Source of the DNA: Kipferlia bialata
Taxonomy: Eukaryota
Assembly: GCA_003568945.1 (NCBI GenBank)
Contig: BDIP01000012.1
Location: 1 to 48,186 of the forward strand
DNA: 48,186 nucleotides
Direction: 5' to 3'
Shown: positions 143 to 39,183 of the stretch, one piece after another
Position numbering within the stretch: the stretch's first letter is position 1
How the letters are laid out: each line of letters begins with the position of its first letter
The notes under the pieces: generated by a model
Told to the model about the DNA's origin: nothing
The model's input: the letters and a program-made list of their open reading frames with translations, nothing else
The model's database searches: none
Position numbers and translations under genes: made by a program

Positions 143-204
143 CTAGTCCCGACATTGATGACTGCACTCTGCTCATGGGCATCGGGGGCTCAGCAAGGGA
201 GGGC
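143..204 (-). CDS. Most 3' complete exon in window (PSLAEPPMPMSRVQSSMSGL)
   Basis: ctaaccctcttag| acceptor and |gtatg donor; phase matches the upstream exon at 452-513; a donor-side echo lies at ~26-67. Confidence 0.7.
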
Positions 205-7847: not shown

Positions 7848-7893
<46 letters not shown>

Positions 7894-10800
7894 TACATAT
7901 ATACCTTGAAGTGGATGCCCTCTGGGGATGACACCACCCCTCCCGCTATGATGATGGGGTAGCCACCGTCTAGGGCCTGGGATCAGTGGACTAAATGAAT
8001 AGCTATATTTACAAAACAGAAGTATTGTTTAATATACACTATGTATATACCCAACGTCTAGGGTCTGGCATCAGTGGACTATGAATATACAGGGCGCAAT
8101 TATACTTTTCTACTCAAGAATATATATGCATACATACACTATAGAGATATCCTCTCACCTTCACCACCAGTGGGTAGAACACATGGCCCGGGACATTGAT
8201 GGGTTGATATATCTACAATTGACACTATATACACTATACATTATGGTATATATACACTATACAATATAGTACATATACTACAAACCTTCACCACTAATGG
8301 GTAGAACACATGGCCCGGGACATCGATAGGTACCACAGTGATGTTGGTGCGCTTGTACGCCGCAGCTAGCACTCTGGCGTTCTCAACCTGGCATAAGCTC
8401 ATACATGTGTTTATCATATGAATAATACATACAAGGTATTCAAGAATGAAATTGTGATAATCTAATTATCGTCCTAACCTTAGTGTTTGACGCCTTGAGC
8501 CCCTCCAGTAGACCAACATACCACAGCAACACACACTGCACAACCTGGGTATTAAGGGGGTAGGGGGGGGGAGGAATAGAGAGAGAGAGAGAGAGAGAGA
8601 GAGAAGGAGAGAGAAAGAACACACTACATACCTGCACACTATCTCTGTCCAGGTATGCATATATACTATACGCCATGTGTATATACTATTTACCATGTAT
8701 ATATATTACATACCTGCACACTATCCCTGTCCAGGTATGCATATATACTATACGCCATGTGTATATAGTATTAACCATGTATATGTATTACATACCTGCA
8801 CACTATCTCTGTCCAGGTATGGTATGCACCCTGGGAAGTGCACTAGAGAGTGGCACAGTCTGACACAGGAGAGCAGGGCAGAGTCTCTAGGGTGTGAGTA
8901 ATATATATCTATATATCAGTATACAATATATACATACTATACATATACTATATATATACAAGTGGCACAGTCTGACACAGGAGAGCAGGGCAGAGTCCCT
9001 GGCAGGTGAGAATAGTATATATATATATATCAGTATACTATATACAAATACTACACATATACTGTATATACTAGTGGCACAGTCTGACACAGGAGAGCAG
9101 GGCAGAGTCCCTGGGGTGAGGCTTTGTTCTTCCATGTGTATGTATATCCACACACACACACACACACACACACACCCATATATATATGTATATATACTAT
9201 ATAGTGGCACAGTCTGACACAGGAGAGCAGGGCAGAGTCTCTGGGGGGTGAGAGTAATATATATCTATATATATCAGTATACAATATATAAATACTATAC
9301 ATATACTATATATATACAAGTGGCACAGTCTGACACAGGTCAGTAGTGCAGAATCCCTGGGGGGTGAGGCACTATATACATTCCCTTTCGAACACGTACA
9401 ATCGGAAATCTCTCATTCATACTAGAGCTCCATAGCAGCATATTGGTATTATCACTATAACCGGAGACCTCTGATCGGACGGAGGATGAGTATATAAACC
9501 CATACCTGGGTGGCAGGGCCCCGGTCATCAGCCACAGGAAGGGCTTGGGCTGGGGGATACCCTGATAGGGTGAGAATTAGACCAAGTATATACTAATACA
9601 GTAAAGATAGCCTAAGTAGTAAGGGTGAGCAGCAGAGGTGAGATACTGAAAGTACAATACAAACTCAGAGACTAAGTACCACACATGTACCTTGAACATG
9701 AAGTGTCTACTATTACAAATATTTGTCTCCTCTCTCGTTATACTTATATATAGTACAATATATACCACGTCGGTCTATGTATATATACGTCTCTCAACAA
9801 GAATATATTTGTATAGTCATGTTGTACATTTGCCAATGTACCTTGAACATGAAGTAGTATGTGTTGGCCTGGGACACTGTCACAAGGGACGAGGACAGCG
9901 AGACCTGGAGTGAGAAGTGTATATATAGTATATATACTGCATAGTATACATAATATAAATAATATATAATATATACAGTATACATATAGTGTATGGCACT
10001 GTGACCAGGGACGAGGACAGGGAGACCTGGGGGTTAGTACATATATACTCTGTATATAGTATGTATAATATACATAATATACATAGAATACATGTAGTGT
10101 ATGTGCCACTGTGACAAGGGACGAGGACAGCGAGACCTGAGAAGTTAGGATATACATATATAATATAGTATTTATATATATCCTATAGACTACATACACA
10201 CATGTATTCATATAAATACTACAGTGCCACGGTGACAAGGGACGAATCAAGCGAGACCAGGGAGTAGGACATATAATCCAAATACTATACAAAATATGAA
10301 GATATATATACAGTACTGTCCCTATATATACCTTTGTCATGTCCTCTATGCCACAGAAGGGCTCTCTATATATGTACTCTATACACTATACTATACCATA
10401 CATTCCATATATACATACTATATACTGTATATATACCTTCGTCATGTCCTCTATGCCGCAGAAGGGCTCTCTATATACTATACCATACCATTCAAACTAT
10501 ACATACTATACACTGTATACACACCTTTGTCATGTCCTCTATGCCACAGAAGGACTCCAGCACACCCCTCATGCTCTGGAACTGGGGGTGAGACACTTTA
10601 GACACATGATACATATATAAATATATATATATACCATATACTGAAAATAGTACTGGAACAGAGTACCAATAGTATATATTTATACATACCTCATGCTCTG
10701 GAACTGGGGGTGAGATGGGTATACATATCATACTATATTATATATATATATATCATACTAATACATAATAATAACCTAGTAAACCTAGTAAAAGCACACC

Positions 10801-13800
10801 CCTCATACTCTGGAACTGGGGGTCAGACAAGTATGCATACTATACAGTACACTAACACCACATTAATACAAACACATATCTATCACTATTACTTCTGACA
10901 CGCATATACATCACATATAAATTAATACTGTATTTGTATATATGTATACCTGAGGCTCTGTGCCTGCAATAGAATTCTATATAGAACAGTCATACTAACA
11001 ATATATTGAATACTGCAATATATGAATATACAAATATATCCACTGTATACCTGTGGCTCTGTGCCTGCATGCTGCCAGAAGGGCTCAGTAGAGAATCCCA
11101 TACATAATAATATAGGTACTGTAACTATATATATATATATTCATATATACTATTTAATATATACTAGTCTATATACCTGGGGTTCTGTGCCTGCATGCTG
11201 CCAGAAGGGCTCGGTGGCTGTGAAGAGAAGGGCCACATTAGAGCCCCTGGGAATGAGAGGAATGCAATATCCATTCTACCATAGTAGTCTACAATGCTAC
11301 AATATATATTGTAGAACTTGAACACAAGCCTAGGCCTAATACACTAGAATGCGTTTACACAATGATACCTGAACAACAGCCTCCCAAGCTCCTCCGGGTC
11401 CTGTATCGATGCAGGCATCAGGACAGAGACACTCTCCCTGAGGTCAGTATCGTAATATCCTAACCCTATTTATGTATATATATCTGACACTGATGATATA
11501 TACAAATATCATTATACATACAAATAGTCAGTCATAGATCATTATACATATATATAGTCAGTGAAGTTGGTCTCAGCACAGAGACACTCTCCCTACGGTC
11601 AGAGAAGGGGATAGTAATATATATATGATGCAATAGTTGTACCAGTAAAGTTTACTTACCTAAGGTCATCTACGTAGTTGCATATGGCCCCATCTGTGCT
11701 GTCTAAGCATGCCTCATGCTTCTCAATCAGGGGCAGGAGCTTGTTCAGCACTGCTGCCTCGCTCCTTGACCTATTGTTACTATTTATTACTATATATATA
11801 TATAATTATTAGTAATTCTTTATAATACATTATATTATGCAATGAATTACAATTCATTGTCATATATTACTATATATTACTATAATACCTCTGGATGAAG
11901 AGACGGGACGTGCTGACACTATAGGATATGAACTGGTGCAGCTCAATGCCACGGTCGGGGTAGAGTCTGATATGAGTATAGAGAGACACACCTACTAACG
12001 TACTATATATACACATAATTGGATATAGAGCAGCTCAATGCCACGGTCGGGGTAGAGCCTGATATGAGTATAGAGTGAATCTCTACATCTGTACAATATA
12101 TATACGAGTATGAATGTACATATACGAGTATATATACACATGAACTGGTGCAGCTCAATGCCACGGTCAGGGTAGAGCCTAGGATGAGTACATATAGAAT
12201 CATATATACATATGTAATAGTATTATACTAATATATATATATGAGTATATATCATAAAAACTGGTGCAGCTCAATGCCACGGTCGGGGTAGAGCCTACTG
12301 TGAGTATAGAGAGAATCTCTACATCTGTACAATGTATATACGAGTATGTATATACATGAACATATGAACTGGTGCAGCTCAATGCCACGGTCAGGATAGA
12401 GTCTAGGATAAGCGTTTATTTGACAGACAGTAACAACATATTGTGCAATGTACCAGTATTGAATTATTCACTGACCTCATGATTGCCTGAAACTGTGCAG
12501 TGCACATATACCATTATCCAAGTACACTCATATTCATGTACTACAAGACATATATATATATAGTATATAGTATATAAATATCTATATATCTGAATATAGT
12601 ACTGACCTCATGATTGCCTGGAACTGTGCCGTGCATACCATGAACGTACACTTGTCATCCATAACTATGTATATACAGTATATATAGTATATATGGTGTA
12701 TATATATCCATCTGAAAGTATACTCTCCAAGTACCTCATGATCGCCTGGAACTGAGCAGTGCATATCTTGATGAATGTGTTGAACACCTCCTTGGGCTCG
12801 TTGGTGTTGTACCGGTTGGTCAGGTACCGCAGGGCACTGGTATCAGTATCAGTATATATATATACATATATATACTGAGACTATTCAAGTATCAGTATCA
12901 GTATCTATCATCTATGCTGATATACTAGTCCGGTATTAGTATCACTATCAGTATCAGTACCAGTAAGGTATCAGTATCAGTATCTATATGTACATGTATA
13001 TATACATATACACTGATACTAGTCAGATACCCACCTTGGTGTGGATGTCATTATTAGTATCAGTATAGATAGTATATAATAGTATATATATTGTACCTAG
13101 GTGTTGCAGTCATGAGGTCAGACACACCAGAGGGGTATGACATATTGACACTAGTCAGGTGTCAGTATCTATATATATACATAAATATATGTATATATAC
13201 TGATACTATTCAGGTACCTAGGTGTTGCAGTCATCAGGTCAGACACACCAGAGGGATAACTCATATTGACCCCTATGCACAGACGGGGTGGGGGTGGACT
13301 GCATGTGGTCACAATTACTGGGGTGAGGCACTCTCTAAACTACGCGATCGTAATAATTACGCGATATGCATATACCTGCGAGGTGCTGCGCCATCTTCAT
13401 AACAAGGGTAGCTGCATCTGGCTGCGGCAGAGAGTACTTCTCTCCCAGGGACAGGTAGATCTGGCCAAGGGCTGCCCTGACAATAAGGGTTTCGGGGGGG
13501 AGAGAGAGAGATAGAGCGTACAAGTGTTCACTGAAATATACATATATAATGAGTCCTTACGGATATTCACAATGTAATATAAACCACTATACTTAGATTA
13601 TACCTTGAGAACACAGGTGGCACTAGGCCCTTCCCGAATGCCACAAGACACTGCCTGAGGAGGGGGGACCGGCTGAGCATGTCACCTGGGGTGGTGAGGG
13701 GTATATATATATATCCTATATATTATATATATCATATATGATATACTAATATCATATATGATATACAAGAGCAAACAGGGCACACATACACACATGTGTG

Positions 13801-16634
13801 TACCTGGAATGTGCAGCAACACTCTGCTGAATAGTGTCCTCTCCGATGAGAACTTGGCGTGGATCTGGGTGTTGACCTCTCCAGCTGGGAAGACCTGGGG
13901 TTAGAAGGGTATATTCATACACTAGTAGCAACATACACAACTATACTACTTGGGCAAGAATACAGATGGAGGTACCACCATGTCTATGTCCTCCCCGTCA
14001 TTCCCCTCACAATAGTATAGGTATACAACAGTATATAATTGTAAATACACATAGGTATACTCACCTTGAATGGGGGTACCACCATGTCTATGTCCTCCCC
14101 GTCCTTCCTGTCTATACAGGATAGTATACACGAACTAGTGTATCAATATATATTTATATATATATATATACATAGATATGCACCTTGAATGGTGGCACCA
14201 CCATGTCGATATCCTCCCCATCCTTCCTGTCAGACAGGGGCAGCACAAGGCCAGAGGGAAGGCCACAGGCCACCAGGACAGCGAATCTACATGTGAGTAT
14301 ACACACAATATAGAAGTATGTATATATATGCGTATATCTAGACAAGGCCAGAGGGAAGGCCACATGCTACAAGCACAGCAAACCTATTAATCAGTACATA
14401 GAGTAGTAACACAGAGTATAGAGTAACTATCGAGAGGAAAGAAGAATATTAATGTGGGTATTTGAGCAGCACACCTCACAAATGCCGCAATCTTCTGGTC
14501 GAGGGTGGGCAGGGCAAGCGCGGCCCAGATGGCCTGGGGGTGAGGTATACTTCCCTCTCAATCTCTCCGGCTCTCAATCGATACATATATATGCACATGC
14601 GCCTTCAACCGTCAATACATACCTCCTGCATGGGTGACTCGTGTGCCTGTGACACCCCTAGGCCATGGAGGAGGAGGTTGAGGTCAAGGACAAGCCTGAG
14701 TTGAGTCTTATCGGGATACAATACTGAGATATTATAATATATGAATTAAGATATATATACATATATACATATATATGGAGGAAGAGGTTGAGGTCATTGA
14801 CAAGCCTAAGGTGAGCCTCTTCGGGACATGGTAATACACTATAGTCCATACAATACCTATGCAGGTATCTCTCGTGGTCAGAATGACGCACTGACTCTCT
14901 ATACTCATTCAAATATAAATACATATATAGTATCCCTCACCTAGGCAAGTAACGTTCATGGTCACTGCCAAAGAATGATGCGCTGGCCTCTGACACTGAC
15001 GACTGGGACTCACACTGGGACTGGTCAAGGGACATGGCACTTCGAAGGCTACCGTGTGACCTAGAGATCAGTTAGTAATATACCGCATTATATAATAATA
15101 TATTGAGCCACCCATATACAGTTCATATGGTCCGTCTCCTTATATTTGTACATGTTACACAATTGTGTGAGTAGTACCTGCGGCAATCGAGACTGCCTGT
15201 CTCCCACGCATCCTGTCTCTCTCTCTCTATATATATATGTGTGTGTGTGTGTGTGAGCAGTTACCTGTGGCTATCGAGACTGCCTGTCTCCCATGCGTCC
15301 TGTCTAGACCTAGACGAGGACATCCCCTTGGACTCCCTGCTACTGTCAACAGAGGAGAGGAGCACCTGCTGGCCCATGGCCTTCTGCCTAATTCTACGCG
15401 ATTGCTTCGCGTAGCCCGCAGAAGCGATCTGACTCAGGGTCACGTTGTAGGCTAGGACTTGGAAGAGGAGCTTGGCGGCCTTGGAGACCTATGGTCAGTA
15501 TCAGCAGAAGTTTTGATACATGATGTATCTGTGACATACACACACATATATACAAGCCTCTGTCTGATCGTGGTTGATGAATGACATGGTCATGGTGGGG
15601 ACAGTCATAAATATATATATATAAATATATATACTAATGTATCTAATATATTCTAGTACATATATATATATATATATATATACATACCTCTGTCTGGTCG
15701 TGGTTGATGAATGACATGGTCATGGTGGGGACAGTCAGCTGTCGGAGGCCACTCCCAATGCCTGATGATAAGTGATATATACAGGTGATAACGTCACTGT
15801 ACTGATATACTATACTATACCAATACACATATGAATCCATGCCTATATCTTCCACCGTCTGTGCCACTGTGTTGTTGACAGCCATATACACATACACAGT
15901 ATATATATATGCCCACTGTAAACTATTATCCATTAATATATATATATATATATACCAATACTCTACCTATGTCCTCCGCCGTCTGTGCCACTGTGTTGTT
16001 GACAGCCATCCAGCACTCAGTATATACACCCATTATACTATTAGCCATATATTTATATATATATATATATCAATAGTTACCTATATCCTCGACCGTCTGT
16101 GCCACTGTGTTGTTGACAGCCATCCAGCACTCAGTCTGGACAGCAGTGGAGAGGAGAGTAGGCACAATCTAGGGTGAGGATAGAGAATACATATATATAT
16201 ACATAGTATAGAGAAATATATGTAAGTATATCCAACACTCAGTCTGGACAGCGGTGCTCAACAAGGTGGGGACAATCTAGCATCAGGGAATATATGGTAT
16301 ATGCATGTATATATCATGGTATATGTATTACAATGTATGTATATCCAGCACTCAGTCTGGACAGCGGTGGATAGCAGGGTGGGGACAATCTAGGATCAGG
16401 GAATATATATATGGAGAGAGTATAGTATATGTATAGTATACATATAGAGAGAGAGGGAGAGTATGTGAATATCCAGCACTCAGTCTGCGATGCAGTACTC
16501 AATAGAGTGGGGACAATCTAGGATCAGTATATGGAGTATATACACTTCATAATAGATACATGCAATATAACATATACTCGCATACACCCACCTCTGGGTG
16601 TTCCACTTCCAGGTATATATCAATATACACACAC

Positions 16635-16670
<36 letters not shown>

Positions 16671-17018
16671 CCCCACATCAAGGTGGTCCAGCACCCCCCA
16701 GTAGTTTATCTTGTAGCCATAATTGACATATATATTGAGTAGTACAATACCTCTGGATGTTCCACATCTAAGTGGTCCAGCACATCCTTGAGAGGATACT
16801 GACTGTGCAAGAGGGGGGCAAAACAGTCACTGACGAAGTAATAAGACTGAGGTAAGAGATAGAGAGAAAATGAACGACTATATATAGTATAATGTATAAC
16901 GTATATACTGTACAGTATGTATGACTGTGCAAGAGGGGGGCAAAGCAGTCTGACACGAAATAGTATGACTGGGGTGAGGGTATATATGCATTGTATATAT
17001 AGTATATGTTTATGGCAA

Positions 17019-17051
<33 letters not shown>

Positions 17052-18891
17052 TAAATATATGACTGTGCAACAGAGGCGCAAAGCAGTCACTGACGAAGTA
17101 GTATGACTGGGGTAAGACGCAGACACTATATACATTATGAGAGTATATACTATATATAAATATCCCCCTTATTACCTTAGGCGCTGGTGCCCCAGGTCCA
17201 CTGTGCAGTGCGGTTAGGATGTCAGACCAGATACGCCTCTCATCGGGGAGCACAGTGATCCTGATGGCTTAGGACGCAATGTATATTGAATGTATCCCAT
17301 ATATATCCGATATACAGTTCATATTCTCTCATCTGATCCTGATGGCTTAGTATTCTGTCAATACATATTGCACATAAGGTATACTATATATAATCTATAC
17401 TGTCAACTCTACCTCAGTATCTCCTCCCTGCCACTTATCATATTACTATCTCAAATTTACTGACTGACGCTTGGTATCCAATACATATATACAATTTTGG
17501 TATCAATAATGCAGACTCCCTACCTCAGTATCTCCTCCCTGCCACTGACCAGGTGCCCGAGTCCTGCCTGGGGTCAGTTTAGACCTATGTATATACATAT
17601 ATGAATGTACATACATAAACACACGCATATTAATCAATGTATACATATAACTGACCAGATGCCCTAGTGCTGCCCGATGTCAGTGTCAGTGTCAGTGATA
17701 TGATATATATATGTCTATATATATAGATAGAGAGAGAGAGAGATAGAGAGACATGCCTTGAACATTGGTGCCAGACACTTGAGGGCCAGTACCAGTATCA
17801 GATGTATGTATGTATATATATATATATAGATACATATATATATATATATAGATACATATATATATATATACATATATATATGTATATATCTGATATATCT
17901 ACATATGTTTACATGCCTTGAACATGGGTGCCAGACACTTAAGTGCCTCCTTCTTCTCATCGGAGGAGAAGAGCTTCCCTGATATCCTCATTCCTGACAT
18001 TAAAATATGTACACACACACACACACATATATGTATATACATATATATATATACATATAACTGTTCTCATCGGAGGAGAAGAGCCGCCCTGAGATGCGCA
18101 TACCTGACGTTACAATAGGTTTAGATATATAGTACTATACTGTGGTAGGATATACGTGGAGAAGATACCACCACACCTGACACAAACAGGTTTGTGGCTG
18201 TGATGTAGTACATTCTGGGTATATATATGTATATACTAATATGCGTGTGTGTGTATACAAATAATCCATACTGAGGTACCTGACACAAACAGGTTTGTGG
18301 CTGTGATGTAGTACATTCTGGGGTCCTTCTTGGTAGCCAGTAGGCCCAGTCTCCGAACACTGTCTAAGATACGCAGGGGTGACATATCCAGGAAGTCACA
18401 CATAGCCAGCAGTACATTGAGCAATGCGCCTCTATAGGCAGGTGGGCTCTTGGGGTCCATGGGCATGGTGGCCAGGAGACTCTCCACTAGGCCAATGTCT
18501 ATAAGCTGGTCGGCGTTGAGAGTGACAGCGAAGGAGGCTATGCTGCGTACCAGGGGTGTCTTTGTGGATAGGTCTAGGTGTGTCTCTGCTAGGAGAGTGA
18601 TGCCCTCAAGTCTAGCGGGGGAGAAGGCACTGGCAAGTCCATCATTCTGATGTGTAAGTGAAAGCATATAAAATTACTTAGGAATATTTAGTAGTGATAT
18701 TACTTGGGAAGATGAGGAGAAGACACTGGGTTGGAACAATACCTGGTATATATATATAGAGAGAGAGCGAGAGAGAGAGAGTACCTGCTCAGTAGGCAGG
18801 CTCTTGGACCTAATGTCCCCCATTGACCAAATATCACTGCCAGTGTTGAGGTTGACAGCTGAGGCTGTACGAGATGCAAGGGTTCTGACTG

Positions 18892-18926
<35 letters not shown>

Positions 18927-21900
18927 AATGCTCAGGTTGACAGCTGAGGCTGTACGAGATGCAAGGGTCCTGAAAGTGAACTAGTAAACAAATACAAGCA
19001 TGAATATACATGCTAGTAAAATTGTACCTTATCACAGGGTGAGACAAGAGCTCCTCCACCGAGTGTACTTCATCCTGCAGACATATATATACATAGTGAC
19101 ACACATATATATGGAAGTACCTTATCACAGGATGCGAAAGCAGTTCCTCCACCGAGTGTACTTCATCCTGCAGACATGCCACCAGGCCATTGTATATATA
19201 TATATACATATATATATACACATATATATGATAGTTAGATACCTAATGACAGGATGAGACAGCAACTCTTCGACAGAGTGTACTTCATCCTGCAGACATG
19301 CCACCAGGCCATTGGCGAAGAGGGGCACGATGGACCCATCTGCTGCCCTGGTGACATGGTTGGACAGGCCATCAAGCCTAGGGTTAGTATATGAGTATAC
19401 CATATACATATATATACAGAGAGACCATCAAGCCTGAATATCAGTAGAATACTGTATGGTAACGTATATAGTGATATGTGTATTGTATGGATATCCATCT
19501 GCTGCCCTGGTGACATGGTTGGACAGGCCATCTAATCTATATATCAGTATACTGTATGGTATTATAGACCATCTAACCTGTATATCAGTGGATGGCAGTA
19601 TACTATATATGTATATATACATATGTAGTAATTAATATACATACCTTGAGTATAATAGTATTATTAATAATGAAAATAGCCTGGAATGAGATTGCATATA
19701 TTTATACTATTCATAACCTGAGTATATGAATATGTATATATGTATACATACCTCCCCCCACAGACACACCTATCACAGTCTGGTTCCAATATAGCAGTAC
19801 AACCATATACAATTCATATATAGAGAGTGTATCTGTATTTGTATATATATATGTATATATATGCATACCAAGAAAGATATACCTGGAATGAGATTGCATA
19901 TATGTATACAATATATACAATTCATAACCTGAGTATATGAATATGTACATGTTTATGTATATAATACCTTCCACCGACAGATACATCTGTCACTGTCTGG
20001 ATGTATGATGGCAAGTGAAGCATTGTGGGAGATACATTAATACATATACTGTGTGTACAATTACCTTCCACCGACAGATACATCTGTCACTGTCTGGATG
20101 TATGAGTATAGTATCAGTATTACACACAGAGAGATATACCTTCCCCCGACAGATACATCTGTCACTGTCTGTATGTATGATGGCAGCAGGTTGGTGGCTG
20201 CGGCACAGGCCCAGCTCTTGCCAACACTCCTGGGGGTGAAATGAGGGTGTAGGGTGAGAGGGGGGGGGGAGAGAGTGGGCATGAGGGCATAGGGGGAGAC
20301 GGATAAGATGAAACTATTGTTGATCTTCAGTAGAGAGGGAGGGAGAGAGAGAGAGCGCCGTACCCAGTGGAGTTGAAACTATTGTTGATCTTCAGTAGAG
20401 AGGGAGGGAGAGAGAGAGAGAGTCATACCTAGTTGAGTTTATGATACATGGCACTCCGAATGTCATGCATGCTGCCATGATATGGGCAAAGGCACGGTTG
20501 GTGGTGGTGATGACAGGGGCGATGCTCCATCTACGGGTCAGAGGCGGGAGAGAGAGGTGGGGGGAGAACGAGAGAGAGAGAGAGAGTGTAGATATATTAG
20601 TATATATATATATATATATACACCTTGGGTGTGTCATGAAGAAGTCGTCAGTCTCCATGGGGTCTCTAAGAGTGTATGTCTCCAGTTCACAGGTGGATGC
20701 GTTGTATCTCAGAGGCTCGTATGCACATGGGTCCAGGCCCTCGGGGAAGCACCGCTCCAGGGTCTGCTCCTGGGGTTAGGGATACTACTAATAGTACAAC
20801 TACGCTTAGGAATACTATATATATACATCCCGCAGATAGTATATAGTATACAATATACTACAGAACTGTATTTAAGGAAACACCGCTCCAGGGTCTGCTC
20901 CTGGGGTTGAAGATACATATACAACACTACACATATAGATAAATATAAATGTATATACCTATATAGTGTGTAGAATATACAATACCGGTCGAGGATCTGC
21001 TGCTGGGGATAGTAATTACTAGTACAATAGCTACTATATATAGTATATACCGAACCCACCTTCAGCATAGCAAACCCAGGGTGCACCGCCCACAGAGACC
21101 TCAGAGGAATATATACTATGCAGTATTTACGATACATGTACAATATATAGTGTATACTGAACCCACCTTCAGCATAGCAAAGCCTGGGTGCACGGCCCTC
21201 AGGGACCTCAGAGCATGCTCCTGGGAGGTTAGGGGTAGAGGGTTAATAGCACGTACTCATGCCTTCATATATACATATATACCATGATACATACCTGTGT
21301 GGTGATTCCCAGCATGTGCTCATACTCGCCGAGAGTCAATAACTATATATACATATATATACATTTACATACACAATCATATCTTCTGTAACATATACTC
21401 GTATTATATATAAATACTTACACAAACATATCTTCTATAACCTGTACTATGTATTCACCTGTGTAGTAATACCCAGCATGTGCTCATACTCCCCACCAAA
21501 GTCAATATATAGATGCCCAGCATGTGCTCATACTCGCCCCCAAATGCTGCCTGTACAGCAGTGAGCAGAGTGTATGAGGTGTACACAGTGGCAAACCCGA
21601 CCATAAACAGTGCGATTGTGTGTCCAAGGGGTGAGTTATCTCCATATGATGTGAAGAAGTCGGTGGAAGGGACAATGCTTAGGACTGGACCGACGTTGGG
21701 AAGACCAAAGAGTGTAGGCTCCACGTGTGGTTGGGATGCATGGATTACGCCCTCCTTGGCACGGGAGATGTCAATGTCAACCTTGTGTTATAGTATAGTA
21801 TATATAGTACAGTACTATAGTATGACATATACAGAATACATGATGACGCCCTCCTTGGCACGGGAGATGTCAATGTCAACCTGGGGTGTAAGGTCATATA

Positions 21901-23128
21901 ATACGGGTTTATACTATGTAGATATGTATGTCTTTACATATATGTATGTGTGTGTGAATATGGACTATTGTATACCTTTGTGGGTGTCAGTGTCATGATG
22001 CCCTGCTCATATATCTATCAATCTATATCGATATATACATGTGGATATATATGGATAGATGTATATGAAATATATATGAATGAAGATACCTTGGTGGGTG
22101 TCAGTGTCATGATACCCTGCTCAGACAGGAGCCACCACATAGCTGCCTGGGGTAAGCGTGGACATCGTGTAGAAAGGCAGACATTCCGTTGAAATACACA
22201 TATTTTACCTGTACGAAGGATCCCTCGCAGGAGCTCAGATTCACATCGAGAACCTCCAAGAAACGGCCAATCACACCGAAGAAGTACTTGACGGAGTCCT
22301 GAGGTATTAGATCATTACACAAACAACTACCAATACTCACAAAGGTAAATAAAAGAAGATACTGAGATGCATCTATATACATGCATTGATACCTGGCTGT
22401 TGAGGTCTGGCTGTTCCCCACTATAAATATATATATATATTTATAACAAATACACTGTTCTAATAGTAACAATACCTGGCTGTTGAGGTCTGGTTCCACC
22501 CCAGTGTGCAGGGCCAGTGACTGTCTGAATGCACCTGGTGTCATATATAGCTTGACAGTATGGATAAACTAGTTACTATACAAAGATTAATACATACCTG
22601 GTGTATACACCATGCCATAGTTAACCACCATGGTATGCAGCTTGAAGTAGGTGTGCGAGGGGAGACCCGTGCTGATGTAGACAGTACGCATAGGTGGGGC
22701 AGCCTTGCTCAGCATAGCTAGTCTCAGGTGATTCTCCTCCCCATAACCCCCTAATGCCTGACCCTTGGGGTCGAAGGACATGTCGAGCAGCATCCACTCA
22801 CGCTCCTCCCCACTTCCCTTGGCCCTATGCTTGAGAGAGCGCTGTGCCGCTATGGGGTCACGGTGGAAGGAGGTGGATGCGCCGCATAGCTTGGCTGCCT
22901 CCTCTACAATAGCCTTCGCAGTATGGAGACAGGGTGTGTACACCCACATAGACTCACCGGGGGCGTCGAGGAGAGCCGATAGCCACTTGGTGGCGTATAC
23001 GCCCTCACCTGTCAGTATGCCCTGTCCCTCACCAAAGTCAGGGGGTGGCTCATCCCTCTCATTGTCAATGGAGGAGCCAAAGGCGGCGCTGACAGCGCCT
23101 ACTGTTAGTACAACATATACAAACATGC

Positions 23129-23159
<31 letters not shown>

Positions 23160-23344
23160 TGGGGCTCATCCCTCTCATTGTCGATGGAGGAGCCAAAGGC
23201 GGCAGAGACTGCGCCTACTGTTAGTATATCATATGCATAATATAATATATAGATATATATAGAGAGAGAGAGATGGGGCTCATCTCTCTCATTGTCAATG
23301 GAGGAGCCGAAGGCGGCAGAGACTGCGCCTGGGGTTAGCCATAC

Positions 23345-23382
<38 letters not shown>

Positions 23383-23425
23383 GAGCCAAAGGCGGCGCTG
23401 ACAGCACCTAGTGTTAGTACAACAT

Positions 23426-23458
<33 letters not shown>

Positions 23459-26019
23459 AAGAGAGAGATGGGGGGAGTCTACCAGTATACAATGTATATA
23501 TATATACGTAGTACCTAGGACACCCTCCCTCTCGTATATACGTATATATACATACCTAGTACTCCCTCTCTCTCGTATGGGTTGAAGGACATGGCCATGT
23601 ACTTGTACACAGCAGTCTCGGGGGAGTCTCCCATGTCGATATCATCGTGTGACTCAGAGTCCTCGTCTGCTACGCGATCACCATCATCGCCCTTGTATCT
23701 AATAGCCATGGCAATGGCAACTGGGGGTGAGAGAGGAAGAGAGAGAGAGAGAGAGAACTCTGGTATCTGATGGCCATGGCAATGGCAACTGGGGGTGAGA
23801 GAAAGAGGGAGAGAGAGAGAGAGAGAGAGCTCTTGTATCTGATGGCCATGGCTATGGCAACTGGAGGTAAGAGAGAAGGGGATATAGAGAGAGAGGGAGA
23901 AGGAGAGTCAGACAGAGAGAGGGAACTATGAGACTCACCATCCGACGGGTCTAAGAATATGGATGGGTCTGCCTCTGCATATGTGGTTCTGAGGGCAAGG
24001 CAGGGCTTTCCAGTGACCTTGGGGATTAGTATCCTACTATATACATATGTATATTAATGTACTAGAAAAACTCTATATATACGTTCACATAGGTACCTTG
24101 GGGATGAACCTCAGCTTGTCAGGTGGCGGACGGACGTCAATGTATCTGGAGTGAGTACCATTATACATACATGAACTGTAGCATACATAATCTTGTGTTC
24201 CTTCCAGTCACATACTAGTAGATAGAATGCAATGTATACATAAGAGTTACTAGCATAGAACAAGTATAGTACAGTACAGTGTATCGATATACAAATATAC
24301 CTGATAGGTGTGTTTCTAGGCAAGTGGGGTGGCACAGCAAAGCTACCAGATGGCAGCACGGGTAGGAACAGGACCAGTCCACCTGAGGGTTAGTGCATAT
24401 GTAGTATATATATACATATACATATATAGGACCAGTCCACCTATGGTGTGCTCTGAGGCATGGGGGGTGGCAGAGCCCAGGGGGTTCCTGACAATGCAGA
24501 GATCGGAGTCAGCCACCTAGTGTGAGCCAGATAGAGAGAGAGAGAGAGAGAGGACATGGGGCGTGGCAGAGCCAAGGGGGTTCCCGACTATACAGAGACC
24601 GGAATCAGCAACCTGAGGGTTAGTGGTATGATCTATGTATACACAAATATATAAAAATATATAGGGAGAGAGAGAGAGAGATGGGGCTTGTCAGAGACAG
24701 AGGGTGACGATGCTGAGGTCAGAGTCTATGACCTCTGTTTGTGAATGAATGGTAAAGGTACGTACCTTAGAGTGTGGTGTATTGGGCCCACTTGCGTATG
24801 GCAGCTCTCCCCCTGCCTCCATCGTGTATGCTATGTCCATGATGACACTCAGATGGGCAGGGGAGGCATTCTCAGCACCAAGCAGATAGACAAGGTGTCC
24901 TAGGGTCATTGGAAGGAAGAATGGGGGATAATATATATATTCATATTTAGTATATATACAAATAGTTATGCTGAGGGGAGGCATTCTCAGCACCTAGGAG
25001 GTAGACAAGATGGCCTGGTATAATTGTATACAAGAGGCAGAAAACACGACACTCATATACTATATACATATGCTATATACATATACGTAATCAGACATTC
25101 TCGGCACCAAGGAGGTAGACTAGGTGGCCTGGGGTTAATCGGAAGTAGAACATAAGACTAAGTTGCCAATACACACTATTCATACCCTCTAACAGCATGT
25201 TTGATATGGCACATGCCATGGGCATCGGAGTATATACACATATACTGTGAATATAGAGATATATCCATACCTACAGTGATACCCTTAGCAACCAGTGCCC
25301 CCAGCTGTGCACTCGACCCATCGGTGTCAAGGAGGGGGGTCACCTGGTCTAGGTTCATAGAGGCAGCTGGGGGTGTTAGAGAGAGAGAGAGAGAGAGAGA
25401 GAGCTAGGTTCATAGAGGCAGCTAAAGTTAGTATACATTTTAGGAAGAACCAAAAGAGAATTGTATAGGTGTATCTAGCAAGGGTGTGACCTGGTCAAGG
25501 TTCATCTGGGCAGCTGAGGGGTTAGACAATGAGGTCTTAAGATAGTAATTACACCATGATATAGAGAGTACTATAAAGTATATCTATCTGCATCTAGGAG
25601 AGGAGTCACCTGGTCAAGGTTCAGAAAAGCGGCTGAAGGGGAGATAATGTACTGTAATACCTACACATACACACAATGTATGGTGAATATATACACCTTC
25701 CCGGTAGTTGAGTAGCTCTCTCTTCCAGTCAACATCTCTCTCTCTCCCTCTCTCCATATATATATGTGTATGTATATACATATATACCTTCACCGTAGTT
25801 AAACAGCTCCCGTGGGTTAACCCCTTCCATCCAGTCATGTACAGTGATATATATATATATATACATATATGTATACATATAAATACATAATTTTGTTATA
25901 TTAACACCAACCTTCACCGTAATTGAGTAGCTCTCCTAGGTTGACCCCTCCCATCCAGTCATGCACCACGTGTCTGTGATGTACACCTAGAGAGGAGAAG
26001 CAGAGAGGTGCCTAGGGTG

Positions 26020-26051
<32 letters not shown>

Positions 26052-29000
26052 AGAGTAGGTGTCTGTGATGCTCACCCAGGGAGGAGAAGCAGAGAGGGGC
26101 CTAATGTTAGAGGATAGAGAGAGAGAGAGAGAGAATATGTGTCTGTGGTGCACACCCAGGGAAGTGAGGCATATACGTATGATTAGGCTGGTATATGTAA
26201 CATACACATACCTTGTCCTTGAACATGTATCTGGACACACAGGGCATGTTGAGCACTGGCACATGCATCATGGACCCCTCTTCTAGGCCTGATGTCAGTA
26301 TCATACATATATAACAAGGCATATATATAGTATGTAAAACAAAAATATAGTGAATATAATACAAATATAGTGAATAGTACAAATAAATACATACTGATAC
26401 TGATACCTGCCAGTACTCTGTCACACCACTCAGGTACAACCACTCAGTATATATATATATAAATATACTACACTCTAACTATGTAATAGCTGATACTGTA
26501 TGTATCATATATATATATATAGATAGATACTATATAATGATACCTGCCAGCACTCTATCGCACCACTCTGGTACAACCACAGTGCTGAGGTACTGATACT
26601 GATACTGATACTATATACTATCAATATCATATATATATATACTATATAATTATACCTGATAGCACCCTGTCACACCACTCTGGCACAGCCACAGTGCTGA
26701 GGTACTTGGGACCAACACGGACACCCTCAGCTATGTCTGTTGGCAGTGCAGTCTGTGCCTTGACCTCTCTCACTGCCTGCTCTAGTGCTGATAGGCCCTC
26801 GCTGGATACAGTGGCCTTGCGGAGGGTGTCGTGGACCCACACGCTCAGACCTGGTATTAGTGTGTACAGAAAGGAGTAACATATATGTATACATATACGT
26901 GACTAGGTACTGAGCATGATAGGTATGCCCTGTCCAGAACTTGTCCATGTCCCCTCCAATTCATATATACATACAGATACATATGATTATATGTATATAT
27001 ATGTAAATACATTCATACCTATGTATTGGGCGTGGTATGTATGTCCAGTCCAGAACTTGTCCATGTCCCCACCCTCCAGGTGGGCTATGGCACTCTCGCA
27101 GTCACGTCTCACAGCCTCTCTCATGGGTAGACGCACATCCCTGGTGTTAGTATATATGAACCTATATGTATGCATATATATAGGTAACTACATGGACCCA
27201 CCTTGGCATGTACCGACAGATGGCAGTGGCACCCTAGTATAGCATATATACTCATAATACTATAGTGTACATATGTATACACATAACTATACCTTGGCAT
27301 GTACCCCCTGATAGCGGGTAGTGGCACCCTAGTCTTATAGCATAGTATCATAATGTGTATATGTATATATATATATATACATGCAATATATATGTATATA
27401 TGCAATATACCTTGGCATGTACCCCCTGATAGATGGAAGGGGCACCCTAGTATAGTATACATACAGTATATATCGTTATATATATATATGTGTGTGTATA
27501 TATGCAATATACCTTGGTATGTACCCCCTGATGGATGGCAGGGGCACCCTGGTCTTGAGTCTGAGCACATCTGCCATCCCAGTCTCTCTGGTCAGGGAGG
27601 TGATGGCTGTGATCTCCCACGTGTCCTCATCCTCTCTCTCTCCCTCTCCCTCTGCGCCATCACCATTATCCTTGGTCCCCTTAGAGCCCTTGGCGGGCTC
27701 AGTACTGCTAGGCTTCTTAGAGCTCTTCGCTGCTTTTGGCACCTTGGCCACTAGGAACCCATTCACGCTGAACAGAGGCAGGGGGATGATACCCACGAAC
27801 CTGTACATGAGAGATATTAGACTACAAGACTAAGTATATATACAAGATTATGCAGAACTATATAGAGCATGAAAATATATAGTTATACTTATACTTATAG
27901 AGAGAGACAGAATCAGACACACCTCTCTCCCTCTTCACTCATTGACTCAATGGTGGCAGTATGAGAGATAGTAAGAGGCATAACCAATTCCCATGTACTG
28001 ATACACATCCAGACACAATGACATACCTCTCCCCTTCCTCGCTCATTGACTCAATGGTGGCAGGGATGGGCTGGATCATAGGGGCCTGGGAGTGAGGGTG
28101 AGAGTAATACTGTTGTAAACAATAAATATTATGTATAATAATTGTATAAGGATATATGTATAAGGAATGGGCTGAATCATAGGGGCCTGTGAGTGAGAGT
28201 GAGAGTAGTACTGTTGTGAATAATAATTATGTATAGTATATGTATAAAGTAGTACAAGGAATCGGCTGGATCATAGGGGCCTGGGAGTGAGAGTGAGATG
28301 AGAGAGAGGAATGATCATGAGCCAAATACCAAGATAAGAAGTGCATTGGTTATGTTCAATGATATATTGAAGAAGTAATGGACATAGATCTGTAGTCAAT
28401 GGCAAATACCTGCAGGAAGCTGGGGTTGTTTGGCAGTGTCATCAGTCCCCTACAATATATATATATATAATCAGGTATATATAAATATATGTATGTGTGT
28501 ATACATAGCAATACCGGTAGGAAGCTAGTGACCATATATACATATGTGCATAATATACCTGAAGGAAGCTGGGGTTGTTAGGCAGTGTCATCAGTCCTCT
28601 ATACCCAGAGTCAGTCTTGTCAGACGCATGGAGGGACTCGTAGATGGGGCGCTGCTGGAGCTTCTGATGCATTAGAAGAAACTAGACTTGAGTGATGTTA
28701 AATATGTACACAATATGGATACTGAGGGACTCGTAGATGGGGCGCTGCTGCAGCTTCTAAGGCGTGAGAACATAGAGAAATCTTAATGTATGCATACAGA
28801 AACATGCATATATATTACACAAATAGCATGGATACTGAGGGACTCGTATATGGGGCGCTGCTGCAGCTTCTAAGGCGTGAGAAGAATGAAAAGAACGAGA
28901 AATGGAGGACAATCAAATAGTTTCTAATACGTGAGAAGAAATGAACTTCCGGGTATACTGCACTGACATATATGGATACTATGAAAAGAAGGAATCGACC

Positions 29001-32000
29001 ATTTCTTCCATTACAAGACTACAATTGAAACCAGTATAGGCTAGATAATGGTAATAATACGTACCAGGAGAGTGGGCACAATCCCACTGAGCAGGTTGTG
29101 CATGTGTATTCAAAGATATATATATATATATATATACATAGGATATGTGATATATAATAACTCTCTGCGTACCAGTAGGGTAGGCACAATGCCACTGAGC
29201 AGATTGTGGAGGTTGTCTGTGAAGTCTGAGTCGATCAGGACATCGAGGAGTCTGTTCTTGCACTTCCTCCTGACACTCTTCCTGATGCTGTACCACTAAG
29301 GTGAGTTTAGTTGTAATCAATATATATATATATATACAAAAACGACACTGTACTATAATCTGTACTGTATTACCAGTATAGTACCTTATCAACTCCACCG
29401 AGGTAGAATGCCCTGTGTTCTTCAGAGTGTGCCATCAGCAGCATAAATGTATATATCTATATAAACACAAATATATACATATATATACATATATAGTGTA
29501 TATATATATATACATATATAGTACCTTATCCACCCCCCCAAAGTAGAACGCCCTGTGCTCCTCAGAGTGTGCCATCAACATGACACCCAGGGCCAGGTAC
29601 TGCTGGACCATCCTGCAAGTGAGACATGTATATATATATATATATATGTATATGTATATATGTATATATATGTATATATAATACATCAACATGACACCCA
29701 GGGCCAGGTACTGCTGGACCATCCTGATAATGAGTCTACACGATAACTTGTCACGTATGGTGATCATGTTATACTATATCAAAATAGATGAGTATATGTG
29801 TACACCGGGGGTCAGGTACTGCTGGACCATTCTGACAGTTAGTTGCTAGAATAATCACATAGTGAGACATGATGACTCATATGATACTCATCCATATCTC
29901 ATATATACCTCAGGAGTGACCCAGAGTGCATGGCCCAGAGCATTGTCTACGATACTTCATATAGTATACAGTACAAACAGTCTTATTCCTATAAAGACAT
30001 ATATATATGCCAACCTCAGGAGTGACCCAGAGTGCATGGCCCAGAGCATGGTCTTCTCAACCAGTCTAGCCCTAGGGGTGAGAGGAAGAGAGAGAGAGAT
30101 ACCGCAGACACGAGATATAGTAATCAAGATGATCTACAGATGGGTAATACAAACAATACCTGGCAGTGATGGGTGCGGCATACTTGGCACCCACATCCCT
30201 CTGGACATACAGGATCATGCTCCTGAGGGGTCAGATATCATATCTATGTATATATATACTATATGTGGAAATAATGAATACATATAGGGACGACAAACAT
30301 GTAAATACTGATACAGGAAGGATCATGCTCCTAGGGGGTCAGAATCTCTCAAAGTAATAATATATATTTATATATGGGTATCTTAAGGTAACAGAGATAC
30401 AAATTGTTCAGAATAACACATGGACAAGAGACAGAGAGAGAAGATATTATACCTGATAGAGACAGAGACAGAGAAGAAATCCTACCTGAGGGTCTCGAAG
30501 AAGTTGGGTGGGATTGGGAATCCGCAGGTGGTAAACACATCCTCTTGGCGTACGATCCTGGGGAGTCAAAAACAAAGAGAGAGAGAGCATATACGAACAA
30601 TAGTGAAATACATGGATATACATATACATACCTCTCCCCCCAAACCTCACTGGTCCATGAGTTCATGGCCCTCTCACAGGCATCAAGCCTAGACTCAACC
30701 TGGAGTGAGTATTCTACGCGATTTTACGGGGTACAACTCACATACTGGCATATATAGGGTATATACATACCTGTGCCTCCTCGTCTCCGGTGTCCACTGA
30801 GAGTATAATAACAACCAGATCTACGTATGATAAATACTACAATCCTAGTCTCTCTCCCAATATATACATACCTGTGCCTCCTCGTCTGCCGTGTCCTGTC
30901 TATATTTCTATATATACCTAGTATAACGACAAATACTACTACATAACAGCTACGCGATGCTAGTCCTTATATATACATACCTGGGCCTCCTCGTCTGCCG
31001 TGTCCACTGCCAGTTGGATGGCAGGTAGGTTGTTGAGACCGCCTGCTTCAACTAGAGGGTTAGATGATTACCATACCACACAAGTCGAGCAACTATGTCT
31101 ACCGTACTCTGAGCCAACCTAGGTTGTCGGGTGATGATATACATATCCAATTTACTATGTTTACTATTGAATATATAAACTCTGAATAACTACGTATGTT
31201 ACCTCACCTAGGTTGTCTGGTGATACCAATACTATTTTCTATATATACTATACTATTGAATTCGTATATACAATATGACATATGGGCGTACCTAGGTTGT
31301 TTGGTGATATCTCTGTCAGTCTCAGCACAGGAAGACCAGTCTGGGACTCAAGCACATCGAGGTGCCTTATTGTAAGTGGCAAATTTATAATAGTATGTGT
31401 ATGTATGTGTATGTATAATGTTTGATATATATATATGCAGACCAGTCTGGGACTCAAGCACATCGAGGTGTCTTAATGTAAGTGGATATATATATATATG
31501 TGTGTGTGTATACTAATGAATGATACAATATATGTATATACATATATATGCAGACCAGTCTGGGACTCAAGCACATCGAGGTGCCTGGGGGAAAGTGGAT
31601 ATATATTATCGTATACATATTATAGTATACATATTTGTGACACAATACATATATGCAGACCAGTCTGGGACTCAAGAACATTGAGGTGCCTGGGGGTAAA
31701 GAAGAAATACACATAAGGAGTAAATAAGAGACAAGAGGTGCATTGCACCCATGATGCAGGTAGTGTACACATGGTGTATATATGGTGAATCAGCACTGTA
31801 TTGTACCTGTGGTGCAGTGATGGGGAGCACACCAAGGAGAGTAGCCCTATGGTAGGTCGCAGCTGCATCTCCTTCTGCCTCAGGGCCACAGGGAAGGACA
31901 GGTTGGGCACGTCCCTAAGAGGTTAGAGAGAGAGAGAGAGAGAGAGAGAGAGCCAGAGAGAGATGAGGGGCAGGTTGGGCACATCCCTGGAAGGTTATTT

Positions 32001-33617: not shown

Positions 33618-33659
<42 letters not shown>

Positions 33660-35804: not shown

Positions 35805-35839
<35 letters not shown>

Positions 35840-36389
35840 TAGGCAGTCAGGGCGTCTCCACACTCCTAATGAGGTATATAAGAAGATAGGAAGACAGAGG
35901 TGTTGCGGGGAGTATCCTACCTGCCACTGAGGCTCTGCCAAGTGTGCCTGTCCCAACAGTATATACACACTATATATATAGTATCTATCTATATATATAT
36001 ATTAATACGTATATAGTATATATCCGACCTGCCACTGAGGCTCTGCCCCCTGTGCCTGTCCCAGCAGTGTCTGGATCTGGACATACTGCTCGGGGGAGTA
36101 GATGCCAGCCATAAGGACCTAGAGGGTGAGATATTACTCCAATATACCTGGTATATTTGCTATGTATGTGTACTGTACGCTATACTATAATCAATATATA
36201 TATGTGTGTACATACTGCTCAGGGGAGTAGATGCCAGCCATAAGAACCTGTGGTAAGACGCTATACTATATTCAGTAACACACAAACCATAAGGCATTAT
36301 GTATCGCTATACACAATGATACCTTGAACCTCTTCACTCTCTCTAGCACACATGCCACTGCAGCAGACAGTATCTGTACATGGACGCCA

Positions 36390-36422
<33 letters not shown>

Positions 36423-36613
36423 GTCAGAGACTATACATAATATATACTCTATACCTCCTTGAACTTATAAATATATAGACACTGTACCTGCTTGAACCTC
36501 CTGACTCTGTTAAGTACACATGTCACTGCAGCAGACAGTATCTGTACATGGGTGTCCCTGGACACTGACAGGGCAGCATCGTACACTGTCTGCAGGGACT
36601 CCTAAGGGGTTAG

Positions 36614-36646
<33 letters not shown>

Positions 36647-36863
36647 GGAGAGGGACACTGACAGGGCAGCATCGTACACTGTCTGTAGACACTCCTAGAG
36701 GGTTAGATATATACATATAGAGATATAGAGAGAGCCAGAGAGAGCCAGAGAGAGACAGAGGGCGGCCTCGTACACGGTCTATATACCTTCGCATTGGTCA
36801 AGTGGGTGACCCCCCCTCCATAGTATGCAGTGTGGGGCAGAGACATACACATACACACACACG

Positions 36864-36898
<35 letters not shown>

Positions 36899-39068: not shown

Positions 39069-39104
<36 letters not shown>

Positions 39105-39146
39105 TTGGCAACCAGGAGCTGGACGCACACATCGTCCTTGCGGTTA

Positions 39147-39183
<37 letters not shown>

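What the first reader, a model, noticed from the sequence alone, without database searches (positions are those of the whole stretch)
19027..19315. Identity gradient within echoes: perfect at the breakpoint end, saturated synonymous change at the splice-site end
Echo 19121-19192 is identical to the exon for ~38 nt next to its breakpoint (aatggcctggtggcatgtctgcaggatgaagtacactc). It then differs at 9 of the next 11 codons, all silently (tcg gtg gag gaa ctg ctt tcg cat cct gtg ata versus tct gtc gaa gag ttg ctg tct cat cct gtc att). The second echo is a third recoding. The same polarity appears at ~9320 and ~16925, though not in every array. This fits an identical 'landing pad' used for crossover or template switching, followed by an interchangeable exon end.
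Basis: partly seen in the sequence, partly recalled or inferred. Interest (0 to 1): 0.85.

Follow-up and report, generated by a model that had tools for sequence, protein, structure and literature searches.

The report
Silently recoded exon ends inside introns
Most introns of this giant gene, likely from the free-living protist Kipferlia, hold short extra copies of the neighbouring exon ends that differ mostly by silent changes and are skipped in the one transcript checked; they are likely leftovers of recombination with very different alleles, so one genome may record hidden diversity and sex.

Summary
Observation confirmed: echo 19121-19192 matches the exon for 39 nt, then differs silently at 9 of 11 codons; echo 19028-19084 is a second all-silent recoding. 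The window is one 129-exon minus-strand gene whose named eukaryotic relatives are all Kipferlia bialata proteins. 82 of 128 introns carry echoes. Over 162 echoes dN/dS is 0.07; 76% of changed codons are silent, against 32-46% if only the exon were protected. Pooled polarity is real but modest (third-position mismatch 0.22 near the breakpoint, 0.33 near the splice site, z 5.6) and fits a step slightly better than a gradient. Replacement changes look like recent neutral decay and do not rise with silent divergence. In one tested 2.5-kb stretch (not the focal array) the spliced RNA contig skips all echoes, and DNA contigs carry them with no diverged copy. Best reading (0.55): echoes are exon ends and splice sites exchanged with strongly diverged alleles by homologous recombination, closed at intron microsatellites. 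The donors were not found. The scan noted junction echoes before in a sea urchin, where one-sided selection sufficed; here it does not. My searches found no description in print.

The parts
143..47834 (-). Host gene: 129 curated exons, about 4,486 codons, both ends outside the window; member of a Kipferlia family of giant proteins with a weak dynein-linker (DHC_N2) match
   Evidence: Open frame of 867 + 3618 aa with one phase break; aligns over residues 115-4484 with P0001 at 44%; names; PF08393 in three relatives
19243..19377 (-). Exon 74, the full exon copied by the focal echoes; branch-point/AG acceptor and GT donor
   Evidence: Sequence, gene model; its use in RNA was not tested directly
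19193..19242 (-). Spacer 1: true intron start (GT) running into a TA-rich tract that abuts the breakpoint of echo 1
   Evidence: Sequence
19121..19192 (-). Echo 1: last 72 nt of exon 74; 39 nt identical (19192-19154), then 9 silent codon changes, then GT
19085..19120 (-). Spacer 2: GT plus TA-rich tract, not alignable by eye to spacer 1 beyond simple repeats
   Evidence: Sequence
19028..19084 (-). Echo 2: last 57 nt of exon 74; 24 nt identical, then 8 silent codon changes, then GT
18929..18969 (-). Acceptor-side echo of the next exon (75), preceded by AG, in the same intron and downstream of both donor-side echoes
18785..18884 (-). Exon 75
19495..19536 (-). Acceptor-side echo of exon 74 (38 nt identical) in the upstream intron
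16922..16968 (-). Acceptor-side echo of exon 80 with the same polarity, including a serine AGY/TCN switch
9319..9356 (-). Acceptor-side echo of exon 100 with the same polarity
20660..23120 (-). Stretch tested against public runs: 7 catalogued echoes skipped by the spliced RNA contig; DNA contigs carry echoes without other letters

Best explanation
The echoes are short intronic copies of exon ends, skipped in the one transcript checked, that were likely left behind when this chromosome recombined with strongly diverged alleles of the same gene. Shown: each echo is one exon end plus its own splice site, lies in the adjacent intron, ends sharply (often at a dinucleotide repeat), and differs from the exon almost only silently. 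Inferred: allelic introns are too diverged to pair, so strand exchange starts in exon sequence, preferentially in a stretch where the two alleles happen to be nearly alike (the 'landing pad'). Copying then runs through the partner's differently coded exon end, splice site and some tens of bases of its intron. The strand cannot return by homology and rejoins at a TA/CT microsatellite or a few matching bases, which leaves two versions of the exon end in tandem (unit about 110 nt). Later unequal exchanges inside the shared exon sequence likely add, swap or delete units. The silent differences therefore arose while both versions were working exons in different lineages (about 0.57 per fourfold site). 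The few replacement changes (about 0.03 per site) are predicted to be decay since a version became intronic. Exon definition and nonsense surveillance likely keep the extra splice sites unused. Which copy is the newcomer, the exon's end or the echo, cannot be told from one genome.
For: dN/dS 0.07 over 162 echoes. Silent share 427 of 565 changed codons, against 32-46% under one-sided selection. pN flat at 0.03-0.04 while pS runs from 0.06 to 0.74; slope 0.01 +/- 0.017. Replacements match random mutation in BLOSUM score and stop count. GC at changed third positions is symmetric, 266 exon against 253 echo of 496, so no drift toward the AT-rich intron. Mismatches cluster (160 adjacent pairs against 128 +/- 7) and a one-way switch fits best. 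148 of 162 echoes keep AG or GT; echo acceptors score like real ones (median 7.9 against 9.1, background -2.4). Splice-side intron flanks are unrelated to the exon's own in 147 of 162 echoes and in 27 of 29 near-identical ones. Breakpoints are shared within arrays (29 of 73 pairs against 14% by chance), with related breakpoint flanks but unrelated splice flanks. A dinucleotide repeat lies beyond the breakpoint in 75 of 162 against 24% background. Nearest echoes are less diverged than farthest in 29 of 41 arrays. RNA skips echoes. Metamonads lack NHEJ and fornicates have Dmc1 paralogs in place of Rad51A (PMC8516963, section 8 read). Yeast repair synthesis switches to 72%-identical templates and slips backwards (PMC12891019, abstract and passages).
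Against: No donor was seen: the DNA run shows no other letters over the stretch laid at 80% likeness, the closest paralogs found are only 30-55% identical over their aligned spans, and two metagenome scans found no relative. The required allelic divergence (about one change per fourfold site after correction) with a replacement ratio near 0.01 is extreme; I recall no eukaryote population at that level (recalled, not searched successfully). The focal exon end is poorly conserved among paralogs, which makes perfect amino-acid conservation less expected. Eight of 188 serine codons switch between AGY and TCN, which needs tunnelling or very deep divergence. Yeast template switching needs about 200 bp of aligned homeology (PMC12891019), whereas exons here have a median of 88 nt. 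The step model beats a gradient by only 8 AIC units. Echo donors score no better than background GT (median 4.7 against 4.5). Sex or cell fusion in this organism is not shown.
Confidence: 0.55

Rival explanations
1. Same DNA mechanism, but the donors were homeologous copies from one or more past hybridisations or genome duplications, since lost, and not alleles of a standing hyperdiverse population.
For: It explains deep silent divergence, serine switches and the absence of donors in the DNA run without needing extreme present-day diversity. A fairly uniform decay of about 0.03 would fit one episode.
Against: Arrays hold up to four echoes, and echo-echo distance equals echo-exon distance (0.25 against 0.24 at third positions), so several donors are needed. 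Per-echo pS spans 0 to above 0.65. Decay rises with rank in the array (pN 0.028, 0.041, 0.057), which points to a continuing process.
Confidence: 0.17
2. Echoes arise by tandem duplication on the same chromosome and stay translatable because frequent deletions or conversions move their ends into the live exon, so broken echoes are purged indirectly (a conversion load).
For: Young near-identical units exist (the 62-nt repeat at 32279-32961, the arrays at exons 97 and 100). Breakpoints are inherited within arrays. No outside donor is needed.
Against: Exchange fast enough to select would homogenise silent sites, yet dS is 0.48. pN does not scale with pS. Stops occur at the neutral rate. Only 2 of 29 near-identical echoes share the exon's intron flank. 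My reasoning is that cis-only exchange would leave the oldest, most decayed sequence at the breakpoint; replacements are 42 proximal against 54 distal.
Confidence: 0.12
3. Echo ends are used at low frequency in RNA (a template switch or non-canonical splice inside the identical pad) or in a programmed DNA swap, and are under direct selection as alternative exon ends.
For: Intact splice dinucleotides (148 of 162), very low dN/dS, and the identical pad in the focal array.
Against: The RNA contig has 0 other letters against the exons and no depth over echo-only bins. Echoes contain stops (4 observed, 3.9 expected) and some appear split by small indels. A swap that changes no amino acid has no obvious product to select.
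Confidence: 0.08
5. Assembly artefact: several haplotypes stacked in tandem through microsatellites.
For: The window has gaps and at least one collapse (21511/21512); breakpoints sit at simple repeats.
Against: Contigs of run X1 span echoes contiguously with 0 other letters (895 nt over 20660-21486, 1268 nt over 21853-23120) at similar depths of about 350-400. 0.94 of sampled 31-mers of 14000-23900 are held. An echo starts mid-exon after intron sequence, a junction that no normal allele contains. X1 may be the window's own source, so this tests the assembly and not the library.
Confidence: 0.03

Closest known systems
Human F7 intron 7 37-bp VNTR with silent 5' pseudo-sites (PMC1557585; abstract read)
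   Same: A repeat unit spans the exon-intron boundary, so the true donor is followed by intact but unused copies; the exon-proximal donor is chosen.
   Different: F7 is one minisatellite with pseudo-sites identical in sequence. Here most introns of a gene carry echoes, on the acceptor side too (where the last acceptor is used), spacers are mostly unrelated, and the exon parts differ by silent changes.
Template switching and short tandem duplication during double-strand-break repair in yeast (PMC12891019; abstract and passages)
   Same: A nascent strand switches to a 72%-identical template at a short perfect match, and can re-anneal up to about 40 bp behind its end; this gives chimeras and duplications.
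   Different: Those are rare engineered events needing about 200 bp of homeology, with duplications averaging 23 bp. Here units are about 110 nt, tied to splice sites and fixed in most introns of the gene.
Dscam mutually exclusive exon arrays expanded by staggered homologous recombination (search listing only; mechanism recalled)
   Same: Tandem exon-derived copies made chimeric by out-of-register recombination, with divergence shaped by coding constraint.
   Different: Dscam copies are whole exons with both splice sites, are spliced in and diversify the protein. Echoes are half-exons with one site, are skipped and keep the protein sequence.
Intron gain by tandem or internal gene duplication (Rogers model; PMC3265369 and PMC4974935 seen as search listings with abstract starts; Gao and Lynch 2009 recalled)
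   Same: Partial intragenic duplications survive because splicing removes the extra copy.
   Different: No new intron position is made in the stretch tested (joints fall at ordinary boundaries), and a plain duplication cannot give a 76% silent share.
Silent-cassette gene conversion (Borrelia vls, Neisseria pilS, chicken immunoglobulin pseudogenes; all recalled, no call)
   Same: Unexpressed partial copies lie beside the expressed gene with conserved stretches next to variable ones.
   Different: Those store amino-acid variety for programmed use in a few loci; echoes store silent variety and show neutral decay.

Membership tests
Exon-junction VNTR (F7 IVS7 type) | Unit spans an exon-intron boundary and repeats the splice site | tested here: met
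   176 of 189 matches reach an exon end; 148 of 162 keep AG or GT
Exon-junction VNTR (F7 IVS7 type) | Extra splice sites stay unused | tested here: met
   RNA contig skips the 7 echoes in 20660-23120; rest of gene and rare forms untested
Exon-junction VNTR (F7 IVS7 type) | Units are near-identical head-to-tail repeats, intron part included | tested here: not met
   Splice-side flank related to the exon's own in 15 of 162; a few young arrays are exceptions
Mutually exclusive exon array (Dscam type) | Each copy is a whole exon with acceptor and donor | tested here: not met
   Echoes cover one end only, median 37 nt, sharp breakpoints
Mutually exclusive exon array (Dscam type) | Copies appear in mature mRNA | tested here: not met
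   No RNA depth over echo-only bins; contigs cannot show rare isoforms
Intron gain by tandem duplication (Rogers model) | A new intron position forms between the two copies at an internal AG/GT | tested here: not met
   5 of 6 RNA joints are ordinary GT-AG at modelled boundaries; the sixth is the collapsed exon end
Silent-cassette gene conversion systems | Cassettes store amino-acid variation | tested here: not met
   dN/dS 0.07; replacements neutral-like
Silent-cassette gene conversion systems | Regular transfer into the expressed copy within a clone | not testable with these tools
   Only contigs were served, no raw reads
Homeologous recombination or template switching in break repair | Mosaic of low- and high-divergence blocks with a switch point | tested here: met
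   Clustering and one-way switch model; margin over a gradient is 8 AIC units
Homeologous recombination or template switching in break repair | A diverged donor sequence exists | tested here: inconclusive
   None in DNA run X1 over the stretch laid, none in metagenome scans; no other isolate was available
Homeologous recombination or template switching in break repair | Microhomology at the illegitimate junction | tested here: inconclusive
   Dinucleotide repeats beyond 75 of 162 breakpoints against 24%; exon 4-mers at breakpoints not enriched for alternating or pyrimidine runs (23 and 10 of 141); parental intron unknown
Homeologous recombination or template switching in break repair | About 200 bp of aligned homeology, as required in yeast | tested here: not met
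   Median exon 88 nt, echoes 22-56 nt; requirement from PMC12891019

The most novel reading that the evidence does not exclude
This protist routinely rebuilds its introns by copying an exon end, its splice site and an intron stub from deeply diverged alleles, and keeps the displaced versions in tandem. A single cultured genome would then hold on the order of 100,000 fossil allele fragments (extrapolated from this one gene to the 124,912 introns in PMC5874029): a readable record of sex, conversion tracts and bacterial-scale silent diversity in a free-living fornicate, with old ends able to return to use by deletion through the shared pad.
Probability: 0.35. Interest if true: 0.9.

Novelty: new variant of a known kind. 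Interest (0 to 1): 0.72.

Why it matters
Intronic sequence with dN/dS of 0.07 that is not in the message should not exist under ordinary duplication and decay. If the echoes are captured allele ends, one genome gives a measure of population diversity, recombination tract length and the occurrence of sex in a fornicate, a group whose sexuality is an open question (recalled) and whose break repair lacks NHEJ and Rad51A (PMC8516963). The architecture is also a large natural test of splice-site choice: dozens of intact branch-point/AG copies per gene are passed over for the last one. In practice it misleads gene prediction; my own gene finder took many echoes for exons, so annotated intron counts may be affected.

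Tried and rejected
No whole genome was held, so the genome-wide frequency and near-identical paralogs could not be searched directly. The first read-laying over a stretch that included the focal array gave no result, so RNA and DNA evidence covers 20660-23120 only. Two word-based protein searches with exon 65 found nothing; the HMMER search found the paralogs. Pfam on 35 single exons gave no match above a curated cut-off. Two metagenome scans found no relative; this is no evidence of absence. An apparent exon without a donor at 21512, which looked like a case needing an echo to complete the message, is better read as an assembly collapse: a DNA contig runs on with 30 other letters there and the RNA has 6 extra bases. 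Hidden continuation of echoes past the breakpoint was rejected (identity 0.20-0.28 at all codon positions 4-18 nt beyond). Trimming bias as the cause of polarity was rejected. A deamination bias is unlikely: 228 of 496 third-position changes are transversions. Echo replacements are not enriched for residues seen in paralogs (13% against 14%). The test of breakpoint against splice-site anchoring was inconclusive (log-likelihood differences 2.7 and 1.4 in favour of the breakpoint). The posterior classes (80 low-low, 61 low-high, 20 high-high) cannot show high-low by construction and are not used as evidence. Literature searches listed no paper describing such echoes in Kipferlia; I read only parts of the genome paper (passages and section 12), none of its supplements, and most subscription journals are not searched. 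Searches for hyperdiverse protists and minisatellite polarity gave nothing usable.

Full report
Setting. The window is intron-rich eukaryotic DNA with TA and AG microsatellites. A gene finder trained on the window, then curated by hand, gives one minus-strand gene of 129 exons and 13,458 nt. All acceptors end in AG; donors are GT except one GC and one collapsed end; the frame is open for 867 and 3618 codons with a single phase break. The spliced protein aligns over residues 115-4484 with P0001 (44%) and with five more proteins. All six are Kipferlia bialata hypothetical proteins; the two weaker hits of the 8 were one unnamed and one bacterial protein that did not align to the full protein. Three relatives carry a weak dynein-linker match. 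The organism is therefore likely K. bialata or a close relative (inference). The branch point close to the acceptor fits what PMC6679479 describes for diplomonads (passages).

The observation. It holds as written: 39 identical bases, then 9 silent changes in 11 codons in echo 1, and a 24-nt identical run with 8 silent codon changes in echo 2, with no replacement in either. The sites near 9320 and 16925 show the same pattern.

The catalogue. Aligning every exon to its two flanking introns gave 189 matches. I dropped 13 that do not reach an exon end, 11 identical copies, 2 at the collapsed exon end and 1 overlapping an exon boundary, which leaves 162 (89 acceptor-side, 73 donor-side). 82 of 128 introns carry echoes (80 after the exclusions). 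In the 24 introns with both kinds, donor-side echoes always come first. Randomly assigned exons give almost no matches. Echoes are 22-56 nt (5th-95th percentile), at most 76 nt even for the 66 echoes of exons of 100 nt or more, with few below 20 nt. Echo plus spacer has a median of 111 nt (quartiles 99-122, n = 158). Identity falls to background just past the breakpoint.

Silent bias. There are 513 silent differences on 1445 sites and 157 replacements on 4597 sites; dS 0.48, dN 0.035, ratio 0.07. Simulated here, that model gives 32-46% silent among changed codons; 427 of 565 (76%) are silent. So both versions of most changed codons diverged under coding constraint. The replacement component behaves differently: it stays at 0.03-0.04 across echoes whose pS runs from 0.06 to 0.74, and its BLOSUM mean, conservative share and stop count (4 against 3.9) match random mutation. 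I read this as two layers: old divergence as working exon, then short decay as intron. Some replacements may be alignment edge effects, since alignments were ungapped and extended to the exon end.

Polarity. Third-position mismatch is 0.22 in the breakpoint half and 0.33 in the splice-site half after removing the first 6 nt (170 and 252 of 769); z is 5.6 by permutation within echoes, for both sides separately too; 84 of 138 echoes lean this way and 46 the other. Simulating uniform mismatches through the whole detection step never reached the observed difference (0 of 200 in each of 6 settings). It holds with one echo per array (z 5.5, 87 echoes) and without exons 74, 80 and 81 (z 4.3). Mismatches cluster. 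A model that starts low (0.16 per fourfold site) and switches once to high (0.57) at 0.07 per codon fits best, with the reverse rate fitted at zero; a smooth gradient is 8 AIC units worse, a flat model 52.

Flanks. Echo acceptors are as strong as real ones; echo donors are not distinguishable from background GT. The intron sequence next to an echo's splice site is unrelated to that next to the exon's in 147 of 162 cases, and in 27 of 29 echoes with at most one difference; fast microsatellite slippage could hide some relatedness. Echoes of one array often share a breakpoint (29 of 73 pairs); their breakpoint flanks are related (mean score 7.9 against -0.3 +/- 5.4; 5 of 29 above the 99th percentile, shared simple repeats may contribute) and their splice flanks are not (0 of 29). 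This is the pattern expected if exon end, splice site and intron stub are exchanged as a block while the breakpoint side stays.

Public runs. Two runs hold the stretch. Over 20660-23120 one contig of X2 covers only the modelled exons, with 0 other letters and six joints, five of them GT-AG; echo-only bins have no depth. X1 contigs carry the echoes contiguously at similar depth and show no other letters. So in this stretch the echoes are in the DNA, the main message skips them, and no diverged allele is present in that sample.

Mechanism. Shown: anatomy, silent bias, neutral-like replacements, block-like polarity, unrelated splice flanks, skipping in RNA. Inferred: recombination with diverged functional alleles, started in exon homology and closed at intron microsatellites, then expansion and contraction by unequal exchange. 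The repair background is permissive: metamonads lack NHEJ and fornicates lack Rad51A but have two Dmc1 paralogs (PMC8516963, section 8). Yeast shows such switches, though with a homeology need of about 200 bp that these exons do not meet (PMC12891019). The weak point is the donor: none was found, the implied diversity is extreme, and the focal exon end is not conserved among paralogs. I give this reading 0.55, past hybrid genomes as donors 0.17, cis duplication with conversion load 0.12, rare functional use 0.08, assembly artefact 0.03 and ordinary decay 0.02. If an echo splice site were used, 146 of 162 would bring a stop, 8 more a frameshift and 8 an open in-frame insert, so nonsense surveillance could remove most errors (inference).

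Known systems and novelty. The closest anatomy is the F7 intron 7 repeat (PMC1557585, abstract); the closest mechanism is homeologous template switching. Each named family fails at least one defining test (see membership table). Searches listed no description for Kipferlia, and the genome paper's passages and overview section that I read do not mention it (supplements not read). I rate it a new variant of a known kind, interest 0.72: the ingredients are familiar, but a coding-selection signature in skipped intronic copies across most introns of a gene is surprising and can be tested with more isolates.

Noticed in passing
window 32279-32961: A 62-nt unit repeated 11 times almost perfectly (part of a 12-copy family), each holding a diverged donor-side echo of exon 40: a young amplification of an echo unit; copy number may be an assembly estimate.
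   Followed up: partly
window 21511-21512: Exon 69 lacks its last codons and donor in the window; DNA and RNA contigs go on with other letters there, so this is likely an assembly collapse.
   Followed up: yes
window 38961-39052: The only phase break of the gene lies inside exon 24; paralogs support the second frame for its 3' part. One-base assembly error, collapse or true frameshift not decided.
   Followed up: partly
window 17917 and 17757: Exon 77 has a GC donor, and its donor-side echo also ends in GC; two other echoes have GC where the exon has GT (15843, 15558).
   Followed up: no
window 42413-42600: The start of exon 17 is uncertain: two strong acceptors upstream lead into sequence only loosely like it, and paralogs differ just before it.
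   Followed up: partly
window 16592-16694: A donor-side echo of exon 80 appears split in two by an inserted CT and TA repeat block.
   Followed up: no
P0001, P0003, P0005, P0006: Kipferlia holds a family of 4,500-5,100-residue proteins, 30-44% identical to this one; in the three long ones scanned the only Pfam match is a weak dynein heavy chain linker, with no motor domains listed. Function not studied.
   Followed up: partly
echoes of exons 23, 65, 80, 81, 91: Serine codons switch between AGY and TCN at five sites (8 of 188 serine codons), a change of two or three bases with no amino-acid change.
   Followed up: partly
X1 record 4 at window 21463-21511: A separate 461-nt DNA contig matches 49 nt of an exon 69 echo with 6 differences; it may be a further echo in the piece missing from the window.
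   Followed up: no
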